Source of the DNA: an uncultured Prevotellaceae bacterium
Lineage (GTDB): Bacteria > Bacteroidota > Bacteroidia > Bacteroidales > Bacteroidaceae
NCBI GenBank assembly: GCA_946540735.1
Contig: CAMNIN010000005.1
Span: 43,953-107,952, forward strand
Direction: 5' to 3'
DNA length: 64,000 nt
Below are positions 47,519 through 54,555 of this stretch, in pieces. The translations under genes were made by a program, and so were the position numbers. Below the pieces are notes generated by a model. That model had not been told where the DNA came from. It saw only the letters and a list, made by a program, of their open reading frames with translations, and made no database searches. Every line of letters starts with the position of its first letter. Position 1 is the stretch's first letter.

Positions 47519-48430
47519 TCAGAAAAGTTTTTGAGGATAGACACCCTCGTCGATCAGTTGCTGGATTCGTTCCACCACACTGGGTCTGTCGGCAGCGTAA
47601 GTCACGCCAAACCATTTACTTGTGGTATCAAGGACTTTCACCGTGGCTGTGCCCTCATTAATCAACTTATTGACCATCAACGGAATGAAGAACTCAGCCT
47701 TGAGATTCTCCATGTTCTTAGGATCACTGAGGAACTCCTTGAAATAAGCCTCACTATGTGTGAAATAGTCGGGGGTAAAGCCCCACATATTCATGCTCAC
47801 AGGGGTATTTTCTTCGACAGCCACCCATTCTCCCTGCTCGTCCTTATAGCAGATAGGTCCGTTGACTCTCATGATCTCCGTGCGCTCGACGACCGTTGTG
47901 AGGTTCTCTTCCTCATCCTTTGAGCAGATACCTCTTGCCACGGTGCCATTTTCCGAAAGCGTGTTGCCCACGCGGAATCCCACCATCGCATATCGGTTGG
48001 TGCTCCCCTCAGGAAGGTCAGCCAGGAATTTCCCGATGACCATAAAGGCGTCGCGGTTATAGAAATCGTCGCAATTGATGACACAGAACGGCTCGTTGAT
48101 CGCTTTTGCCGCCATCATGACAGCATGGTTTGTGCCCCAGGGCTTCACCCTGCCTTCTGGAACACAGAATCCCTCAGGCAGAGCGTCAAGAGACTGAAAT
48201 ACAAGTTCCGCGGGTATATGGCCCTCATACTTACTGAGGATTTTCTCTTTGAAATCCTGTTCGAAATCTTTTCTGATGACAAAAACGATTTTCCCGAATC
48301 CGGCTTTGATAGCGTCGTAGATGGAATAGTCCATGATGGTCTCACCGTTAGGTCCGAGTCCATCAAGTTGTTTCAGGCCACCATACCTGCTTCCCATACC
48401 GGCGGCGAGGAGTAACAATGTTGGTTTCAT
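47519..48430 (-). CDS. Sugar-phosphate nucleotidyltransferase-family protein
   Basis: I use the internal start MKPTLLLLAAGMGSRYGGLKQLD, which carries the G-rich NTP-binding loop. The protein is 303 aa. The specific substrate is unknown. Confidence 0.7.
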   Translation of the reverse strand: MKPTLLLLAAGMGSRYGGLKQLDGLGPNGETIMDYSIYDAIKAGFGKIVFVIRKDFEQDFKEKILSKYEGHIPAELVFQSLDALPEGFCVPEGRVKPWGTNHAVMMAAKAINEPFCVINCDDFYNRDAFMVIGKFLADLPEGSTNRYAMVGFRVGNTLSENGTVARGICSKDEEENLTTVVERTEIMRVNGPICYKDEQGEWVAVEENTPVSMNMWGFTPDYFTHSEAYFKEFLSDPKNMENLKAEFFIPLMVNKLINEGTATVKVLDTTSKWFGVTYAADRPSVVERIQQLIDEGVYPQKLF

Positions 48431-48497
48431 AATAACGAAATTTAATATAAGGTTGAATATTTCGTGCAAAAATAACAAAAAACTACCACATACGGCA

Positions 48498-48980
48498 TTA
48501 TCTCCGCTTATTTTTTTTCATCAGCTCATCGAGGAGCCCCCGACAAGCATCTTCAAGCAAGTCGATGACAAGTTCGAATCCCTGCTCTCCTCCATAATAA
48601 GGGTCTGGAACGGTATGGTGCATGGGGTGATGGCGGAGATAATCAGCCATACACACGATTTTCGCTTTATCATAAGGACTTCGGATTCTTGCCGCAAGGT
48701 CCATCTCATTCTCATGGTCCATGGCGACGATGAGATCGAACCGGTCGAAATCTTCCACCGTAAACTGCCTTGCCCTGCTGGTGAAGTCATAGCCATGCTT
48801 TTTGCCATGTGCCCTCATCCTGGGGTCGGGCAAGTCTCCCACATGCCATCCTCCGATACCAGCGGAGTCGACTGCGAAAACATGTTCCATACCCTCAACA
48901 GCGATAAGCTGCCGCATAATTTCCTCTGCTGCCGGAGAGCGGCAAATATTTCCCAAACAAACAAACAAAATGCGCTTCAT
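48498..48980 (-). CDS. Low-molecular-weight protein-tyrosine phosphatase
   Basis: The 160-aa ORF has the P-loop CLGNICRSP. The DP loop is VPDPYYG. Confidence 0.9.
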   Translation of the reverse strand: MKRILFVCLGNICRSPAAEEIMRQLIAVEGMEHVFAVDSAGIGGWHVGDLPDPRMRAHGKKHGYDFTSRARQFTVEDFDRFDLIVAMDHENEMDLAARIRSPYDKAKIVCMADYLRHHPMHHTVPDPYYGGEQGFELVIDLLEDACRGLLDELMKKNKRR

Positions 48981-49094
48981 GTCTCAAAACTATTTCTTTT
49001 ATTCTCTTTTTTCAGCTTCAGCAAGAAAAAGGCAGGAAAACCTTTGCCCTACTTCATTTTTTTCATTATCTTTGTACAAATTCTTGAGTTAGCT

Positions 49095-49952
49095 ATGGTA
49101 AATAAATCTCTTTCAAATTCCACATGGGCTGGCAGTATCTCATGCCAGCGCGTCAATTATACCACCAGAGTTGATTCTTCGAAGTTGAAGTCACCCGCCA
49201 ATAATTATGTTTACAGTCTTTTCGAAAAAGGCAAGGCCCGCATCAAATACAACAAAACCGAGATCGATGTTTGCGCAGGCGATCTTCTCATTTTTCCACC
49301 TTATATTAAACCCTGCCTCACCTGGAAAAGTGAAGAATACCAGGCTTTGTGCATGATTGTGAACGCCTCTTTCGTCTATAATTGTCCATTATCCCGGAAT
49401 GTTTTCCAGTCAGTCACTTTCTCTCTGATTCATGATACCGACCCCGTTTTACAGCTTACCCGTCAAGAGAAAGAAAAATTCAGATTGACCATGAGCATGA
49501 TTCTCTATCATCTGAAAGAAGAGCACACCTATACCATTGAGGCGTTGTATTCTCTTTACGGACTTTTTCTGGCCGATCTGATGTCAGTAATCAACAAGAA
49601 GAAATCGGAGAGTTTCAACAAGCATTATTACCAGATTTTCATTGATTTCAACAAATTGCTGCGCACTCATTTCAGATACCATCACGAAATCTCGTTCTAC
49701 GCAGACCAGTTGAAAATTTCAAGTCGCTATCTCTCCTTGGTGACCAAGCAAATCGCACATACCACGGTATCGACATATATCAACCGCCTGCTGATGCTTG
49801 AAGCCTGCTGGCTCTTGAAGAACACGGACTACAGCATTCAGAAAATCAGCGATACTCTGCACTTCTCAGACCAGGCCTCGTTCTCGAAATTCTTCAAACG
49901 ATTGAACGGCAGCAATCCGCTGTTGTATCGTCGGGAGAATGAAGTACTCTGA
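49095..49952 (+). CDS. AraC-family transcriptional regulator
   Basis: The real start MVNKSLSNS is at 49095. The C-terminal double HTH is FYADQLKISSRYLSLVTKQ...IQKISDTLHFSDQASFSKFFKR. The 539-aa track ORF is an artefactual upstream extension across two minus-strand genes. Confidence 0.8.
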   Translation: MVNKSLSNSTWAGSISCQRVNYTTRVDSSKLKSPANNYVYSLFEKGKARIKYNKTEIDVCAGDLLIFPPYIKPCLTWKSEEYQALCMIVNASFVYNCPLSRNVFQSVTFSLIHDTDPVLQLTRQEKEKFRLTMSMILYHLKEEHTYTIEALYSLYGLFLADLMSVINKKKSESFNKHYYQIFIDFNKLLRTHFRYHHEISFYADQLKISSRYLSLVTKQIAHTTVSTYINRLLMLEACWLLKNTDYSIQKISDTLHFSDQASFSKFFKRLNGSNPLLYRRENEVL

Positions 49953-50728: not shown

Positions 50729-51550
50729 ATGTCAACAATCGACCAATACCTTAAAAGCAACAACACTCAAGAGCGGGAATATTGTCTATACTGGCTGACG
50801 GCCTTTGGCATCCAGTCTGTGGTCGATCTCAAACCTTCCGACGACCTATTCCCGATTATCAGCCGACACATCGAAGGCGAAATCGACATCAAACGGACGA
50901 AGCAAGAAATCCATCGTTTCTACGACCATTCCAAACAGGGCAGCGGTGATCATCATATTCATCGTGGTGAGGAAGCCGATCTTGTCTCCTCACGAATCGT
51001 GGAGATTTTTTTATCAAAAGATTTCGACCTCTCGGTGCAAGGATTCAGCAACGTTCACCGCCAAATGTTCCATGGCATCTATCACCACTCCGGCCAATGG
51101 CGTGAGCGTCCTTTCAGCAAGAAGGAATGGGTGCTGGGCAATTCATCTGTACTCTACCCCGATGCCAGTCTGATCGAAGACTTCCTCAACCACCTGTTTG
51201 AGCAAGAGAAGAGCATCGACTACTCCCGGCTGTCTGAGAAGCACAAACTGATGAGCTACAGCATCTTTATCTCCAAGTTGTTTATGATCAATGCTTTCCA
51301 GTACGCAAACAGTCGAGCTGCTTTCGTCTACGGCATCAAATACCTGCTCACTCAGGGGTACCATCTTCGCAACACCACTTTTACCAAGGAAGCCTGGTAT
51401 TTCCGCAATGCCATCATCCGCGCATTCTACACCAACATGCATCAGGGCATCTATCCTACAACAACCTTCATGGAGATGTTTTTGGGCAATCTGCTCAACG
51501 ACGAGGACAATGAACTGAGAAACCACCGCATGGTGATCAAGGGAGAATAG
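50729..51550 (+). CDS. Fic-fold protein with a degenerate Fic motif and a VbhA-like N-terminal region
   Basis: The 273-aa ORF has Fic core helices (VHRQMFHGIYHHSGQWRE). Where the HxFx(D/E)GNGRxxR motif should sit it has NAFQYANSRAAF. The N-terminus resembles VbhA-type helices (LKPSDD...HIEGEIDIKRTKQEI). Confidence 0.55.
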   Translation: MSTIDQYLKSNNTQEREYCLYWLTAFGIQSVVDLKPSDDLFPIISRHIEGEIDIKRTKQEIHRFYDHSKQGSGDHHIHRGEEADLVSSRIVEIFLSKDFDLSVQGFSNVHRQMFHGIYHHSGQWRERPFSKKEWVLGNSSVLYPDASLIEDFLNHLFEQEKSIDYSRLSEKHKLMSYSIFISKLFMINAFQYANSRAAFVYGIKYLLTQGYHLRNTTFTKEAWYFRNAIIRAFYTNMHQGIYPTTTFMEMFLGNLLNDEDNELRNHRMVIKGE

Positions 51551-51553
51551 CCT

Positions 51554-52294
51554 TCATCTTCGCACAGTTTCCACCAATCCATATTGCGCCCAGTTGCCAA
51601 GCAACTTGGCGCAATCTTTTTTTGCTACAGCCTCCTCTACTTCATACACCTCCCGGATGGCCTTCACCATGTCCGGCAAGGTGAAACACTCATGGTCGAT
51701 ACCATCCCACACTGCCTTAGCAGCCTCATTGAAAGCAATCAGATGGTGCATGTCAACGCTCTTCCTGACCGTGTCGACGAGAACGACCCGGTTACCATGG
51801 ATGGTGTCAAACCTACAATGAGGTCTAACCCGAAAAGACTTGGCCAGGTCCACTTGCTGACTGGCTTTTCCTCTTTGGCCTCCCCCAGACTGCAAACCCA
51901 CCATGCAAGCAACAATATGCGATAAAACCGTGTGCTCCACATTCTTGTTATGATCACCCTTCAGCGTCACCTCCTGTCCCCGTATCTCCACGATACGATG
52001 CATGACGTAGTGCCCGGTATCAATCTCTGCCAGCACCACGTCACCAACCTTAACCTTATCCTTTGCACGTAGAGTAACTATGTCGGTGTTGTCTTGGATT
52101 GTGGGCAGCATGCTCCGCCCCTTAGGAACCATTGAAACCTCATACCCACGAAGCAAATAGGGTTTCATCGAAGCGAAGAAACCTTCATTGTCGATTTTAA
52201 CAACCTTGCAGCTACCGGATTCCTGACAACGCTCACAACTTGTTGTAAACAACAACAGCAACCATCCAATGATGTAAAAAAAACACCTTTTCAT
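51554..52294 (-). CDS. Fusion protein: SipW/Sec11-type (Ser/His) signal-peptidase-like domain plus C-terminal PqqD-like (RRE) domain, with an N-terminal signal/lipobox
   Basis: The 246-aa ORF starts MKRCFFYIIGWLLLLFTTSC. Peptidase blocks are GRSMLPT, VMHRIV and KGDHN. The C-terminal approx. 90 aa (FNEAAKAVWDGIDHECFTLPDMVKAIREVYEV..AVAKKDCAKLLGNWAQYGLVE) parallels the stand-alone PqqD protein at 22087-22374. Confidence 0.65.
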   Translation of the reverse strand: MKRCFFYIIGWLLLLFTTSCERCQESGSCKVVKIDNEGFFASMKPYLLRGYEVSMVPKGRSMLPTIQDNTDIVTLRAKDKVKVGDVVLAEIDTGHYVMHRIVEIRGQEVTLKGDHNKNVEHTVLSHIVACMVGLQSGGGQRGKASQQVDLAKSFRVRPHCRFDTIHGNRVVLVDTVRKSVDMHHLIAFNEAAKAVWDGIDHECFTLPDMVKAIREVYEVEEAVAKKDCAKLLGNWAQYGLVETVRR

Positions 52295-52321: not shown

Positions 52322-52383
52322 CAAAAATAAAAGGCAAGAAGAGAAAAAAGTAATTGAATTTCTACTTTGTCGGTAAAAATGCG

Positions 52384-52391
52384 TATTTTTG
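52384..52391 (+). promoter_or_regulatory. -7 promoter box (TATTTTTG) for the ATP-grasp gene
   Basis: It matches TAnnTTTG. The first in-frame ATG downstream is at 52474. Confidence 0.4.
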
Positions 52392-52473
52392 CACAATCTT
52401 TAATGAATGTTCAACAAAAGCCACTTTGCTGGCAATAAGATGGCTAAAGACTCAAAGCCAAAGACTTATAGAT

Positions 52474-53619
52474 ATGAGAGCTATAGACAAATTTTTAAAG
52501 AAAGTCGTCCTTGGGAGCGACAGACGGGTGCGTGACTTTTGCGAGAAGAAACCCTCACGTCTGAGATTCTACGAAAACAAGTACATGCCCTTGCAACTGT
52601 CATTTTTCAGATGGCACAACTATGCTATAGGAGACCATGTGCTCGGAGCCTTAAGAAAATCTACCGAAAAATACATACGCATCAATCTCACTCCAGAACA
52701 AATGGCCGACGTGAAATACACATCTAAGCTAAGAGATGATATCATCAAGTGCCGTTTGATATACAAGACCCATCCCACAGAGTATTTTTTGTATGGATAC
52801 GAGCATCTGGACTATTGGCAGCGTAAAGAATACCTCTCTGATAGCGACCGATGGCGGATTCTCCATGAGCGTTTCGGCAAAAAAGTGCATCGCGAACACG
52901 CCGACAAATGGTTCTTCTACCATCTGGCCCAACCCTATTTTCACCGGGAGGCCTGCAAAGTAGGAGAAGAAGCCAAGAAAGAAGATTTCCTTCGATTCGT
53001 TTCCCGTCACCATGATTTTTTCGTCAAACCCCTTGATGGATGTTTTGGACGTAACGCCTATCGATTGGAAGCAGACAGCGAGGAAAAAGCAGAAGAGATC
53101 TACCAAAAGCTGGTTTCAAACGGTGTGTGGATAGTAGAAGAACTGATCACACAATCCGAAGAATTCGCTGCCTGGAATGCATCGTCGGTCAACACCGTGA
53201 GAATCGCATCCTTCCTCACCGCTGAAGGAGTTCACCACAACATCGTCCCATTTTTCCGTGCCGGTCGAGTTGGATCCGTCGTCGACAACGCTTTAAGCGG
53301 CGGAATTATCGCCGGAGTAGACGAGAAGACCGGTGTCCTATGTTCGGATGGAATGGATGAGGAGGGCCGGCATTTCAACGCTCATCCCGACTCTGGAATC
53401 GTATTTGAGGGGTGGCAAGTACCAGACTGGCAGGAGTTATGCCGTCTGACCGAGGAAATACACCGCTCACTCCCTCCATATCACAGATACATCGCTTTTG
53501 ACTTTGCCCATACCGCAAAAGGATGGGTACTGGTGGAAGGAAACTGGGGACAACTCATCTTCAACCAATCAGGATGCCATCGTGGCGTCAGAAAAGAGTT
53601 TTTAAATTACATAAAATAA
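52474..53619 (+). CDS. ATP-grasp-fold ligase with a long N-terminal extension (putative peptide ligase)
   Basis: The ORF is 381 aa from MRAIDKFLKK. ATP-grasp blocks are FFVKPLDGCFGRNAY (Lys/Gly loop), WIVEELITQSEE, NTVRIASF and FDFAHTAKGWVLVEGNWGQ (Mg/ATP E-x-N). The track start at 52354 is a TTG upstream of the promoter box. Confidence 0.7.
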   Translation: MRAIDKFLKKVVLGSDRRVRDFCEKKPSRLRFYENKYMPLQLSFFRWHNYAIGDHVLGALRKSTEKYIRINLTPEQMADVKYTSKLRDDIIKCRLIYKTHPTEYFLYGYEHLDYWQRKEYLSDSDRWRILHERFGKKVHREHADKWFFYHLAQPYFHREACKVGEEAKKEDFLRFVSRHHDFFVKPLDGCFGRNAYRLEADSEEKAEEIYQKLVSNGVWIVEELITQSEEFAAWNASSVNTVRIASFLTAEGVHHNIVPFFRAGRVGSVVDNALSGGIIAGVDEKTGVLCSDGMDEEGRHFNAHPDSGIVFEGWQVPDWQELCRLTEEIHRSLPPYHRYIAFDFAHTAKGWVLVEGNWGQLIFNQSGCHRGVRKEFLNYIK

Positions 53620-53701
53620 GAATAAAGTTATCAAAAGACCTGCAACTTCCCCTATTCTGAATTTTTTTACACAATTTCTTTGGTAGTAACAAAAAAATGA
53701 C

Positions 53702-53709
53702 TAACTTTG
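53702..53709 (+). promoter_or_regulatory. -7 promoter box (TAACTTTG) for peptide gene 1
   Basis: It matches TAnnTTTG 47 nt upstream of the ATG at 53756. Confidence 0.5.
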
Positions 53710-53755
53710 TAGCGTTTTAAATAATTATATTATTAACCCTTTAAAAAAATCAGTT

Positions 53756-53887
53756 ATGAAAGCTATTTATTCAGAGCCGATGACAAAGGTTATGTCCCTG
53801 AACGTGAAGGCCGCTATCTGCGAGAAAGAGCGTACTGTTTCTGAGCCTGACAACACAGACAAGCAAGAGGACATGCCTCTGTTCTAA
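53756..53887 (+). CDS. 43-aa candidate precursor peptide, copy 1 (MKAIYSEPMTKVMSLNVKAAICEKERTVSEPDNTDKQEDMPLF)
   Basis: I found this ORF by hand because it is below the 60-aa track cut-off. It has its own -7 box and its own terminator. A near-identical inverted paralogue lies 469 nt downstream. It sits immediately downstream of the ATP-grasp gene. Confidence 0.6.
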   Translation: MKAIYSEPMTKVMSLNVKAAICEKERTVSEPDNTDKQEDMPLF

Positions 53888-53910
53888 TCCAATCGGACAA
53901 AGACAGAACA

Positions 53911-53937
53911 GCCAGACCAAACGGTCTGGCTTTTTTT
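53911..53937 (+). terminator. Rho-independent terminator of peptide gene 1
   Basis: The 8-bp GC-rich stem (gccagacc / ggtctggc) has an AAAC loop. A T7 tract follows. Confidence 0.75.
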
Positions 53938-54306
53938 ATCTTTAGTATTTTTCAATCAAGCAAGAAATCAAATTATCAAAGTTGGATCCACTTTAAAAAT
54001 CTTTTTCATCACATTTTGATGTCCGCAAGGTTCCTCTCTCCTTCGGAGGAGCGGAGTCTCTTGTAATGCAAATGTATTCATCCGACTTTTTAAAATAGAT
54101 TAAAGTATTACTTTAGAAAATACATGTAAAGTCTTACGTGAATTACAATTATATCAACCTTTACGGAATATTTAAAAAATTCCACTCTTATGGACATATC
54201 AAAACGAAGATATAGAAATCCGCTGACCCTGAAGGAAACCATTTAAGGTCATCCCTAAGGAGCAAAGTGCTGACACGATCATCAATGATTGCAAAGAGAA
54301 TACAAC

Positions 54307-54332
54307 AAAAAAGCCAGACCGTTTGGTCTGGC
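54307..54332 (-). terminator. Rho-independent terminator of peptide gene 2
   Basis: It is the same gccagacc/ggtctggc hairpin in inverted orientation. A T6 tract follows on the minus strand. Confidence 0.75.
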
Positions 54333-54355
54333 TGTTCCATTTCTGTCCGATTGGA

Positions 54356-54487
54356 TTAGAACAGAGGCATGTCCTCTTGCTTGTCTGTGTTGTCAGGCTC
54401 AGAAACAGTACGCTCTTTCTCGCAGATAGCGGCCTTCACATTCAAGAACATAACCTTAGTCATCGGCTCTGAATAAATCTTCTTCAT
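54356..54487 (-). CDS. 43-aa candidate precursor peptide, copy 2 (MKKIYSEPMTKVMFLNVKAAICEKERTVSEPDNTDKQEDMPLF)
   Basis: I found this ORF by hand. It differs from copy 1 at 2 residues (A3K, S14F) and at 8 nt, all within the first 48 nt. The last 81 coding nt plus stop plus 12 nt of 3' UTR are identical. It has its own -7 box and terminator. Confidence 0.6.
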   Translation of the reverse strand: MKKIYSEPMTKVMFLNVKAAICEKERTVSEPDNTDKQEDMPLF

Positions 54488-54547
54488 AATGGTTAAAATT
54501 TAAATGTATTAATACAGTTAATTATAATTGTGTTATGAAACACGCAG

Positions 54548-54555
54548 CAAAGATA
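54548..54555 (-). promoter_or_regulatory. -7 promoter box (TATCTTTG) for peptide gene 2
   Basis: The reverse complement of caaagata matches TAnnTTTG about 60 nt upstream of the ATG at 54487. Confidence 0.5.

What the first reader, a model, noticed from the sequence alone, without database searches (positions are those of the whole stretch)
53756..54487. Inverted twin peptide genes with a 96-nt perfectly identical core and 3' UTR but diverged leaders
The two 132-nt ORFs are convergent and separated by a 468-nt AT-rich spacer. By hand alignment the first 48 nt differ at 8 positions, which gives two amino-acid changes (A3K, S14F) and several silent changes. From codon 17 (GTG AAG GCC...) through the stop codon and 12 nt of 3' UTR, the copies at 53804-53899 and 54344-54439 are 100% identical over 96 nt. 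After a short divergent patch the terminator hairpin is identical again. This mosaic of diverged 5' part and frozen 3' part points to one of two things. Either there is very strong constraint on the C-terminal core, or gene conversion has been confined to it. Either is typical of multi-copy precursor-peptide genes. Convergent identical terminators could also pair as a long inverted repeat.
Basis: seen in the sequence. Interest (0 to 1): 0.8.

Follow-up and report, generated by a model that had tools for sequence, protein, structure and literature searches.

The report
Twin small-peptide genes kept identical by conversion
Two separately promoted copies of a 43-codon gene in a rumen Prevotellaceae genome are real, conserved coding genes whose 3' two-thirds are kept identical by gene conversion, and they probably encode a precursor peptide for a neighbouring, undescribed peptidase fused to a peptide-recognition domain.

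Summary
Arms 53754-53936 and 54307-54489 form a 183-nt, 93% inverted repeat. Each arm is a 43-codon ORF plus its terminator. The copies have 8 differences in the first 48 nt and none in the next 96.

The genes are real. Only this frame stays open in about 15 Prevotellaceae lineages. The N-terminal dN/dS is 0.03. Each copy has its own Bacteroidetes-type promoter and terminator.

The duplication is ancient. Two distinct 5' regions ("A-type" and "K-type") are orthologous across species. The coding cores are 94% identical within a genome but only 63% identical between genomes, which is concerted evolution.

Across species the N-terminus (Y-x-x-P-x-T-K-V...) and the C-terminal PLF are the conserved parts, and the middle is hypervariable.

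Orientation varies between lineages (convergent, tandem, or flanking a gene), so the inverted arrangement is incidental.

A lipoprotein that fuses a SipW-like S24 peptidase to a PqqD/lasso-type recognition domain is known only from this locus. It is the most likely partner, but it is absent in 4 of 10 lineages. The adjacent ATP-grasp gene belongs to a polysaccharide-associated family and is probably unrelated. Divergent single copies occur on two rumen phage contigs. Function remains inferred.

The parts
53679..53709 (+). Promoter of copy A. It has a Bacteroidetes-type -33 TTTG (53679-53682), a 19-nt spacer, and a -7 box TAACTTTG (53702-53709). The conserved 'A-type' 5' leader (GCGTTTTAA..TATTATTAAC..TTAAAA) follows.
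   Evidence: Read directly from the sequence. The TAnnTTTG box and the A-type leader are conserved upstream of the orthologous copy in 10 lineages. That this is the Bacteroidetes promoter consensus is established knowledge, not tested here.
53756..53887 (+). Copy A ('MKA' type), a 43-codon gene: MKAIYSEPMTKVMSLNVKAAICEKERTVSEPDNTDKQEDMPLF
   Evidence: Homologues occur in about 15 lineages. It is the only frame open in all of them. dN/dS values are.
53910..53938 (+). Intrinsic terminator of copy A: a 9-bp stem, a 4-nt loop and a T-run.
53939..54305 (.). AT-rich spacer between the two terminators. It is not conserved between species.
   Evidence: Alignment of the window spacer with those of L004 and L060 shows conservation only at the terminators. 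No Rfam family matches.
54306..54333 (-). Intrinsic terminator of copy K, with a stem-loop identical to that of copy A.
54356..54487 (-). Copy K ('MKK' type), a 43-codon gene: MKKIYSEPMTKVMFLNVKAAICEKERTVSEPDNTDKQEDMPLF
54505..54516 (.). Perfect palindrome TGTATTAATACA in the 5' leader of copy K. The core TGTATTAAT is invariant in all 10 K-type copies examined and absent from A-type copies. It is a candidate operator or RNA element that would give the two copies different regulation.
   Evidence: (pair I2).
54548..54555 (-). -7 promoter box TATCTTTG of copy K.
51554..52294 (-). A 246-aa lipoprotein made of a SipW/ER-type S24 serine peptidase domain and a C-terminal PqqD-like RiPP recognition element. 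It is the proposed leader-binding peptidase for the twin peptides.
   Evidence: Pfam PqqD 3e-10 and Peptidase_S24 2e-6. NCBIfam gives weak signal peptidase I, SipW and lasso-PqqD hits. The lipobox Cys20, Ser61 in GxSMLPT, His99, Lys112 and Asp114 are invariant. The AlphaFold2 model has mean pLDDT 77.5. Foldseek matches the LexA and lambda repressor C-terminal domains, PqqD (5sxy), and TbiB1 bound to its leader peptide (5v1u, target TM 0.74).
52474..53619 (+). ATP-grasp enzyme of family PF14397 (ATPgrasp_ST). The longest ORF starts at TTG 52354. It is a neighbour and probably not a partner of the peptides.
   Evidence: Pfam 1.5e-34. Relatives sit in polysaccharide loci. It is absent from three peptide-bearing lineages. 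Its clade includes members without peptides nearby.

Best explanation
SHOWN. The two arms are independently transcribed paralogous genes for one 43-aa peptide. The duplication is old. Each copy keeps its own lineage-specific promoter and 5' leader across Prevotellaceae species. The 'K-type' leader carries an invariant palindrome that the 'A-type' leader lacks. From about codon 4-16 to roughly 12 nt past the stop, the two copies are repeatedly homogenised by gene conversion. Each genome therefore makes one peptide from two differently controlled genes.

The peptide has three zones. The first is a strongly conserved N-terminal 23 residues: M-K-x-x-Y/F-x-x-P-x-T-K-V-h-x-h-N-V...I/V-C/M. The second is a hypervariable, acidic, Pro/Ser/Thr-rich middle of about 15 residues. 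The third is a conserved C-terminus, (D/E)-x-P-L-F.

INFERRED. The N-terminal YxxP segment is a leader that docks into the PqqD/lasso-type recognition domain of the adjacent S24 (SipW-like, Ser-His) lipoprotein peptidase. That enzyme would remove the leader outside the cytoplasm, possibly after the small-residue motif V-x-(A/S/G) just before the I-C-E position. This would release a strain-specific acidic peptide of about 20-24 residues ending in PLF. The export route and the activity of the product are unknown.

The convergent, inverted orientation in this genome is an incidental rearrangement state.

Confidence by part: about 0.9 for the shown part (coding genes, ancient paralogues, gene conversion) and about 0.45-0.5 for the inferred peptidase link. 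The single figure given is for the whole chain.
For: Coding. The ORF, its start and its stop are retained in about 15 lineages and two phage contigs. Only the sense frame is open in all of them. The leader has 7 synonymous and 1 non-synonymous change (dN/dS 0.03). The PLF codons vary at synonymous sites across the family.

Own transcription units. A TAnnTTTG box lies 47-61 nt upstream of each ATG, and each copy has a terminator.

Ancient duplication with conversion. For the 70 nt upstream, orthologues are 0.70-0.72 identical and within-genome paralogues 0.61. For the core, orthologues are 0.63 and within-genome paralogues 0.94. The window paralogues differ at 2 synonymous sites in the core, whereas window and L004 orthologues differ at 10 of about 19 synonymous sites. 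In L004 the two cores differ by 5 synonymous and 0 non-synonymous changes.

Link to the peptidase-recognition fusion. It is adjacent in 6 of 10 chromosomal lineages. In two of these the order is pepK>pepA>S24-PqqD> on one strand with no ATP-grasp gene. Its homologues were found only in this clade. Its recognition domain resembles PqqD and TbiB1 bound to a leader peptide. Helix 3 of that domain holds most of its invariant residues. YxxP is the documented recognition sequence of lasso-type recognition domains (PMC12710340). A preprint independently flags PqqD/Peptidase_S24 neighbourhoods around a gut peptide family as an RRE protocluster (bioRxiv 10.1101/2025.01.13.632881).
Against: The fusion gene is absent next to intact peptide pairs in 4 of 10 lineages (L005/L040, L016/L052, L058, L056/L038). 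It is also absent near the phage-borne copies. The leader stays conserved in those lineages.

All peptide loci lie in one syntenic chromosomal region, between the Fic-like gene and Vsr/SAT. Adjacency could therefore be inherited rather than functional.

There is a topology conflict. The peptidase has an invariant lipoprotein signal, so it is extracytoplasmic. The peptides have no convincing signal peptide, and no transporter gene is in the locus.

Each peptide gene has its own terminator, so the 'operon-like' order is weak evidence.

There is no transcript, peptide or binding data. A chimeric co-fold of peptide and recognition domain could not be run.
Confidence: 0.5

Rival explanations
1. The peptide is a free-standing small cytoplasmic protein. 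It could be a two-motif adaptor, inhibitor or regulator that uses its N-terminal strand and its C-terminal PLF, or a phage-related accessory gene. On this reading it has no functional tie to the peptidase or the ATP-grasp gene, and the neighbours merely share a variable chromosomal island.
For: The peptide pair is more constant than either enzyme. Lineages exist with only one enzyme or with neither. Divergent single copies sit on two phage contigs with no such enzymes. The peptide has no signal peptide. The island also holds a candidate defence gene (PDC-S72). The middle region looks like a disordered acidic linker.
Against: This leaves the PqqD-type recognition domain without any candidate peptide ligand, although that protein family is known only from this locus. 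It also leaves the YxxP motif unexplained, and the same-strand order in L047/L051 and L043/L044.
Confidence: 0.3
2. The peptides are precursors modified by the adjacent ATP-grasp enzyme. The product could be graspetide-like, with side-chain lactone or lactam rings. It could be lasso-like, with the ATP-grasp replacing the cyclase. Or amino acids could be ligated RimK-style to the C-terminal PLF.
For: The ATP-grasp gene lies directly upstream of copy A. It co-occurs with the pair in 7 of 10 lineages, and in L005 the two copies flank it. The core is rich in Thr/Ser/Asp/Glu/Lys. In an unrelated locus (L014), four paralogues of this ATP-grasp family sit next to two other small peptides with a KKY-x-x-P N-terminus.
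Against: The enzyme is PF14397 'sugar-transfer associated'. It matches none of the graspetide maturase models. Relatives lie in capsule or teichoic-like loci (LicD, Wzy, GT4). In L013 and L016 it is bracketed by GT2, an acyltransferase and an EptA-like transferase. It is absent from L047/L051, L043/L044 and L056. Close relatives (L006-L012, L033) have no peptide nearby. The core has no conserved ring-forming residues. A lasso-type acidic residue at position 7-9 is not conserved. An ATP-dependent step after periplasmic leader removal is topologically awkward.
Confidence: 0.12
3. The peptide is a tiny secreted peptide or lipopeptide. Its own N-terminus would act as an atypical signal peptide, and the S24 enzyme would act as a dedicated signal peptidase, in the manner of SipW with TasA. 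The near-invariant Cys would be a lipidation or cleavage landmark.
For: The peptidase is SipW-like and extracytoplasmic. Some members have a moderately hydrophobic 10-residue stretch before the Cys (VLSMMVAGSV-C, VMSMAVYGAV-C), followed by an acidic residue.
Against: In the window peptide and many others that stretch contains Asn and Lys (VMFLNVKAAI, VVTVNVKAI). It has a beta-strand pattern rather than a helical hydrophobic core. The residues before the Cys do not fit a lipobox. The Cys is replaced by Met in L039, L045 and L059.
Confidence: 0.06
4. The arms are non-coding: a repeat element, an sRNA pair, or the arms of an invertible DNA switch.
For: It is a long near-perfect inverted repeat with a short AT-rich spacer. 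Bacteroidales are rich in invertible regions (general knowledge).
Against: There is a codon-level signature of purifying selection. A single frame is conserved. No Rfam family matches. Orientation is tandem in most lineages. Four strains of the same species show the same spacer orientation. The spacer is not conserved. Inversion between identical 3' ends would change nothing.
Confidence: 0.02

Closest known systems
Lasso-peptide leader recognition and removal (B1 recognition domain plus B2 protease, or fused B protein)
   Same: A PqqD-family recognition domain is physically coupled to a leader peptidase. The predicted domain superposes on TbiB1 bound to its leader. The peptide N-terminus carries the Y-x-x-P recognition motif.
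   Different: The protease is an S24/SipW-type serine peptidase, not a transglutaminase-like cysteine protease. The protein is a lipoprotein. There is no Asn-synthetase-like cyclase. The core has no conserved position-1 or ring-closing residue.
Multi-copy RiPP precursor genes with a conserved leader and hypervariable core (for example prochlorosins and cyanobactin precursors)
   Same: The genes are short. The N-terminus is highly conserved (dN/dS 0.03) and the following segment varies rapidly. There is more than one copy per genome.
   Different: Here the copies within a genome are homogenised to the same core rather than diversified. A conserved C-terminal PLF follows the variable part. No core-modifying enzyme is securely linked.
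Concerted evolution of duplicated bacterial genes by RecA-dependent gene conversion (for example tufA/tufB in enterobacteria); named from general knowledge
   Same: These are old paralogues with distinct flanks whose coding sequences stay nearly identical within a genome while diverging between species. One pair is in inverted orientation.
   Different: The repeat is only about 130-180 nt. The tracts are mosaic and usually spare the first codons. The products are small peptides.
SipW, the dedicated ER-type signal peptidase for TasA/TapA in Bacillus subtilis
   Same: The best sequence-model matches of the peptidase domain are archaeal/ER-type signal peptidase I and SipW. A His replaces the usual Lys in the VxHR motif. 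The idea of a dedicated peptidase for a few neighbouring substrates also carries over.
   Different: This enzyme is fused to a recognition domain. It is a lipoprotein in a Gram-negative organism. The putative substrates lack Sec signal peptides.
PqqD/Peptidase_S24 neighbourhood of the gut 'AMP_c423' family (bioRxiv 10.1101/2025.01.13.632881)
   Same: Gut-microbiome loci pair PqqD and Peptidase_S24 with an uncharacterised small product. antiSMASH flags them as an RRE-containing protocluster.
   Different: That family is reported to carry signal peptides and to be a membrane-disrupting antimicrobial peptide. The peptides here are acidic and have no signal peptide. No twin genes or gene conversion are described there.

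Membership tests
RRE-dependent RiPP precursor peptide | A small ORF encoded next to a protein that carries a RiPP recognition element | tested here: met
   The S24-PqqD fusion is adjacent in the window and in 6 of 10 chromosomal lineages. The recognition fold is supported by Pfam and Foldseek. It is absent in 4 lineages.
RRE-dependent RiPP precursor peptide | A conserved leader carrying a recognition motif, followed by a more variable core | tested here: met
   Y/F-x-x-P-x-T-K-V is invariant. Leader dN/dS is 0.03 and core dN/dS about 0.5. YxxP is the known lasso-type recognition sequence.
RRE-dependent RiPP precursor peptide | A core-modifying enzyme consistently linked to the precursor | tested here: inconclusive
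   The only candidate is the ATP-grasp gene, which is neither always present nor specific to the locus. The system may involve proteolysis only.
RRE-dependent RiPP precursor peptide | Physical binding of the leader to the recognition domain, and a post-translationally processed product | not testable with these tools
   No expression or mass-spectrometry data are available.
Graspetide (microviridin-type omega-ester/amide peptides) | An ATP-grasp ligase of the graspetide maturase clade | tested here: not met
   NCBIfam gives only weak RimK-like, glutathione-synthase-like and similar hits and no graspetide model. Pfam assigns PF14397 ATPgrasp_ST.
Graspetide (microviridin-type omega-ester/amide peptides) | A core with a conserved pattern of Thr/Ser and Asp/Glu (or Lys) ring-forming residues | tested here: not met
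   The segment between the I-C-E position and PLF is hypervariable, with no conserved donor or acceptor positions.
Lasso peptide | A B2 cysteine protease and an Asn-synthetase-like cyclase in the cluster | tested here: not met
   Neither domain occurs in the neighbourhood.
Lasso peptide | A core with Gly/Ala/Ser/Cys at position 1 and Asp/Glu at position 7-9 | tested here: not met
   Counting from the Cys, an acidic residue falls at position 8-9 in some lineages (window, L004, L005, L013) but at 10 or later in others (L052, L047, L044, L038). The Cys is Met in three members.
Paralogues under concerted evolution (gene conversion) | Paralogues more alike within a genome than orthologues between genomes, with flanks showing true orthology | tested here: met
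   Core identity is 0.94 within genomes and 0.63 between genomes. Upstream identity is 0.61 within genomes and 0.70-0.72 between orthologues. Synonymous sites are homogenised.
Invertible DNA switch (inverton) | Inverted repeats flanking a regulatory segment found in both orientations | tested here: not met
   Same-species contigs (L001, L002, L003, L041) are collinear with the window. The spacer holds only terminators and is not conserved. The pair is tandem in most lineages.
Known RNA family / non-coding repeat | A match to a curated RNA model, or an absence of coding signature | tested here: not met
   Rfam gives no hit at gathering threshold and only E >= 0.5 otherwise. The coding signature is strong.

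The most novel reading that the evidence does not exclude
The locus defines a new peptide-maturation system in Prevotellaceae, with relatives borrowed by their phages. YxxP-leader peptides would be recognised by a lasso-type recognition domain fused to a SipW-like serine peptidase anchored as a lipoprotein outside the cytoplasm. This would release a hypervariable, strain-specific acidic peptide ending in PLF, acting as a signal, competition factor or phage-related effector. The product would be made from two gene copies kept identical by conversion but switched on by different regulators.
Probability: 0.25. Interest if true: 0.8.

Novelty: new variant of a known kind. Interest (0 to 1): 0.55.

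Why it matters
Prevotellaceae dominate the rumen and many human guts, yet almost nothing is known about their small peptides. [quoted passage not shown] This family matches no Pfam, NCBIfam, PHROG or PADLOC model and carries no name in a collection of 15 billion proteins.

If the recognition-domain link holds, it adds a new enzyme architecture to RiPP-type leader processing: an S24 serine peptidase fused to the recognition domain and anchored as a lipoprotein. It would also give genome miners a new search handle.

Independently of function, the locus is an unusually clean natural example of mosaic gene conversion acting on a repeat of about 130 nt for a long evolutionary time. The orthologous flanks provide an internal control. 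The locus also shows one product being placed under two promoters.

Tried and rejected
(1) The peptides had no hit in Pfam (even at E = 10), NCBIfam, PHROGs or PADLOC.

(2) The word-indexed protein search and a full phmmer scan of 1.8 billion representatives each returned only one close relative. The family had to be found at DNA level.

(3) The search for related loci failed with broad alignments because no conserved 7-10 column stretch was present. A narrower ATP-grasp alignment and a hand-made degenerate DNA pattern worked. Three of the 25 pattern matches were false.

(4) Rfam gave nothing at gathering or E-value thresholds.

(5) tblastn against GenBank phages gave no match.

(7) The graspetide idea was my first hypothesis on seeing the ATP-grasp gene. 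It was downgraded after the family assignment, the polysaccharide contexts and the lineages without the gene.

(8) Lasso-like ring logic was rejected because the position of the acidic residue is not conserved.

(9) A lipoprotein or signal-peptide reading of the peptide was rejected because of polar residues in the putative hydrophobic core and Cys-to-Met replacements.

(10) A role as antitoxin to the Fic-like neighbour was rejected. No conserved inhibitory (S/T)xxxE(G/N) motif is present, the core is hypervariable, and the Fic motif itself is degenerate.

(11) A conserved function for the spacer, or for an antisense ORF, was rejected.

(12) Nucleotide-level constraint on the 3' end of the gene was rejected, because the PLF codons vary synonymously across the wider family.
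Full report
**Observation**

The region was read directly and its ORFs listed. Two 43-codon ORFs converge on each other: 53756-53887 (+) and 54356-54487 (-).

I compared the two copies in register, anchored on the two ATGs.
- There are eight differences in the first 48 nt, in codons 2, 3 (three bases), 10, 14, 15 and 16. They give A3K and S14F.
- The next 96 nt are perfectly identical and run through the stop codon and 12 nt of 3' UTR.
- A 6-nt divergent patch follows, and then both copies have an identical terminator hairpin.

The repeat finder reports a single inverted pair, 53754-53936 and 54307-54489, 183 nt long and 93% complementary. Similarity starts 2 nt before the ATG, and the upstream sequences are unrelated. 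The clustering of differences gives Fisher p = 1e-4.

**Are they genes?**

The same small ORF was found by tblastn, by an HMM built from the first hits, and by a degenerate DNA pattern scan of metagenomes. It occurs in same-species contigs, in other rumen Prevotellaceae MAGs, and in metagenome contigs. That amounts to about 15 lineages.

Evidence that the ORF is a real gene:
- Only the sense frame is open in all members.
- Pooled over ortholog pairs, the segment from ATG to T-K-V has 7 synonymous and 1 non-synonymous change (dN/dS 0.03). The rest of the gene has dN/dS about 0.5.
- The C-terminal Pro-Leu-Phe is invariant as protein, while its codons vary synonymously.
- Every copy has a TAnnTTTG box 47-61 nt upstream of its ATG, and its own terminator. 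TAnnTTTG is the Bacteroidetes -7 promoter element (general knowledge).
- No Rfam family matches the region.

The non-coding reading is therefore rejected.

**Anatomy of the peptide**

Alignment of the family shows three zones.
- N-terminal zone, about 23 residues, conserved: M-K-x-x-Y/F-x-x-P-x-T-K-V-h-x-h-N-V-...-I/V-C/M-(E/D).
- Middle zone, about 15 residues: hypervariable, acidic and rich in Pro/Ser/Thr.
- C-terminal zone: conserved (D/E)-x-P-L-F.

The Cys is replaced by Met in three members. Between very close strains the variable part shows more non-synonymous than synonymous changes. From the per-pair counts I tally about 13.5 against 2.5 by hand, which is too few to be significant.

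**Concerted evolution**

Chromosomal genomes carry two copies wherever the sampled contig extends far enough to show both. The copies fall into two types, defined by their promoters and 5' leaders.
- The A-type leader reads GCGTTTTAA..TATTATTAAC..TTAAAA.
- The K-type leader carries the palindrome TGTATTAATACA. Its core TGTATTAAT is invariant in all 10 K-type copies examined.

Mean nucleotide identity across 11 genomes:

| Segment | Orthologues between genomes | Paralogues within a genome |
|---|---|---|
| 70 nt upstream of ATG | 0.70-0.72 | 0.61 |
| Core (after T-K-V to stop) | 0.63 | 0.94 |

The upstream pattern shows that the duplication predates the divergence of species whose ATP-grasp proteins are only 45% identical. 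For the core there is no orthology signal at all: between genomes, A-K pairs are also 0.63 identical.

Synonymous sites are homogenised as well. The window pair differs at 2 synonymous sites in the core, whereas window and L004 orthologues differ at 10 of about 19. This is gene conversion, not selection alone.

The conversion tract is mosaic and differs by lineage. It reaches the start codon in L013 and L052. It leaves 2-4 residue differences just before the C-terminal motif in L047, L056 and L058.

Within the window's own species, the only variation in 230 nt of copy A is a three-allele series at codon 14: TCC Ser, TTC Phe, ATC Ile.

**Orientation**

The arrangement of the pair differs between lineages.
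- Convergent: the window, L004 and L060.
- Tandem: L036/L061/L032, L013, L016/L052, L047/L051, L056/L038 and L058.
- One copy on each side of the ATP-grasp gene: L005.

The spacer between the window copies is not conserved with L004. It has the same orientation in the four same-species contigs. The inverted repeat as such has no conserved role.

**Neighbours**

Upstream in the window lie three genes of interest.
- A degenerate Fic-like gene, which matches the PADLOC candidate defence family PDC-S72 at 4e-74.
- A 246-aa protein with Peptidase_S24 and PqqD domains.
- An ATP-grasp gene of family PF14397.

The S24-PqqD protein has these features:
- An invariant lipoprotein signal, with Cys20.
- The GxSMLPT serine motif.
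- A VxHR motif with His, as in SipW/ER-type signal peptidases.
- A conserved KGDxN motif.

Its AlphaFold2 model has mean pLDDT 77.5. The model matches LexA and lambda repressor C-terminal domains for the first half. The second half matches PqqD (5sxy) and the lasso recognition protein TbiB1 bound to its leader peptide (5v1u/5v1v, target TM 0.74). YxxP is the documented recognition sequence of lasso-type recognition domains (PMC12710340). Homologues of the fusion were found only in this clade.

**Strength of the links**

Context of the peptide pair in the ten chromosomal lineages:

| Neighbouring enzymes | Lineages |
|---|---|
| S24-PqqD fusion and ATP-grasp | window, L004/L060, L036/L061, L013 |
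| Fusion only, with order pepK>pepA>fusion> on one strand | L047/L051, L043/L044/L042 |
| ATP-grasp only | L005/L040, L016/L052, L058 |
| Neither | L056/L038 |

All these loci lie between the Fic-like gene and the Vsr/serine-acetyltransferase genes, so inherited synteny confounds the association.

The ATP-grasp family is otherwise found in polysaccharide loci. One example has LicD, Wzy and GT4 genes. In L013 and L016 the gene is bracketed by GT2, an acyltransferase and an EptA-like transferase. Its close relatives often have no peptide nearby. It does not match graspetide maturase models. I therefore consider it an unrelated glycan enzyme.

One caveat applies. A separate locus (L014) places four paralogues of this ATP-grasp family next to two other small peptides that begin KKY-x-x-P.

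The recognition-peptidase fusion is the better candidate partner. However, it is extracytoplasmic, while the peptides have no signal peptide and no transporter is encoded nearby.

**Phages**

Divergent single copies, with Met in place of Cys, lie on two IMG/VR viral contigs of 66 and 75 kb. These contigs carry phage DNA polymerase and HNH/homing endonuclease genes. The copies on the phage contig L045 and on the metagenome contig L062 each lie convergent with a BspA-type leucine-rich-repeat gene. No match was found in GenBank phage records.

**Comparison with known systems**

- The closest mechanistic analogue is leader recognition and removal in lasso-peptide biosynthesis. Here the protease class and the localisation differ, and there is no cyclase.
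- The leader/core evolutionary pattern resembles multi-copy RiPP precursors. Here, however, the copies within a genome are homogenised rather than diversified.
- The conversion dynamics resemble tufA/tufB (general knowledge).
- Known Bacteroidales RiPPs use GG-motif leaders and PCAT transporters (PMC10352776). This family does not.
- A 2025 preprint notes PqqD/Peptidase_S24 neighbourhoods around a gut antimicrobial-peptide family.

**Verdict**

The coding status and the gene conversion are well supported; I put my confidence at about 0.9. The assignment of the peptides as substrates of the S24-recognition fusion is an inference, at about 0.45-0.5. A role for the ATP-grasp enzyme is unlikely, at about 0.12. 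The finding is a new variant of a known kind and is moderately interesting.

Noticed in passing
window 50729-51550 (+): A 273-aa Fic-like protein matches the PADLOC candidate defence family PDC-S72 (E = 4e-74) and phrog_12747. Its Fic motif is degenerate: NAFQYANSR in place of HxFx(D/E)GNGR. It is the most constant neighbour of the peptide pair.
   Followed up: partly
window 54505-54516: A perfect 12-bp palindrome, TGTATTAATACA, lies in the 5' leader of copy K. Its core TGTATTAAT is invariant across all 10 K-type copies examined and absent from A-type copies. It is probably a regulator operator or an RNA element.
   Followed up: partly
window 53795-53797 (codon 14 of copy A); L001/L002/L003 and L041: A single codon has three alleles in one species (TCC Ser, TTC Phe, ATC Ile). 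The surrounding 230 nt are otherwise invariant. The cause could be selection or micro-conversion from copy K; this is unresolved.
   Followed up: partly
L014 6968-14481: A separate locus holds four ATPgrasp_ST paralogues. Beside them are two homologous 65-aa peptides (MNMKKYMQPSTEIM...WDD and MRKYIQPKIDIS...WDD) and a 595-aa protein with a weak Big_2 match. This is a second case of KKY-x-x-P small peptides next to this ATP-grasp family.
   Followed up: partly
L039 12156-12287; L045 7089-7256 (IMG/VR contigs of 75 and 66 kb); L062 11215-11346: Single divergent homologues lie on the phage contigs L039 and L045, with Met in place of Cys, and on the metagenome contig L062. In L045 and L062 the copy is convergent with a BspA-type leucine-rich-repeat gene.
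   Followed up: partly
L016 11387-11502: The second peptide copy appears frameshifted in this MAG, which also lacks the S24-PqqD gene. The closely related contig L052 has both copies intact. It may be an assembly error or a strain-specific pseudogene.
   Followed up: no
window 48333-49952 (+) and 48498-48980 (-): The 539-aa ORF with an AraC-type HTH is probably over-extended. Related contigs call a 285-291-aa regulator, with a low-molecular-weight phosphatase gene on the opposite strand under its 5' part.
   Followed up: no
window 52354-52473: The start of the ATP-grasp gene is ambiguous. The longest ORF begins at TTG 52354 (421 aa). Homologues and some gene calls support ATG 52474 (381 aa).
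   Followed up: no
L013 2581-7753; L016 5977-11298: In two lineages the ATP-grasp gene is embedded in a four-gene surface-glycan module: a GT2 glycosyltransferase, the ATP-grasp, an Acyl_transf_3 acyltransferase and an EptA/sulfatase-like transferase. The module is inserted between the Fic-like gene and the peptides.
   Followed up: partly
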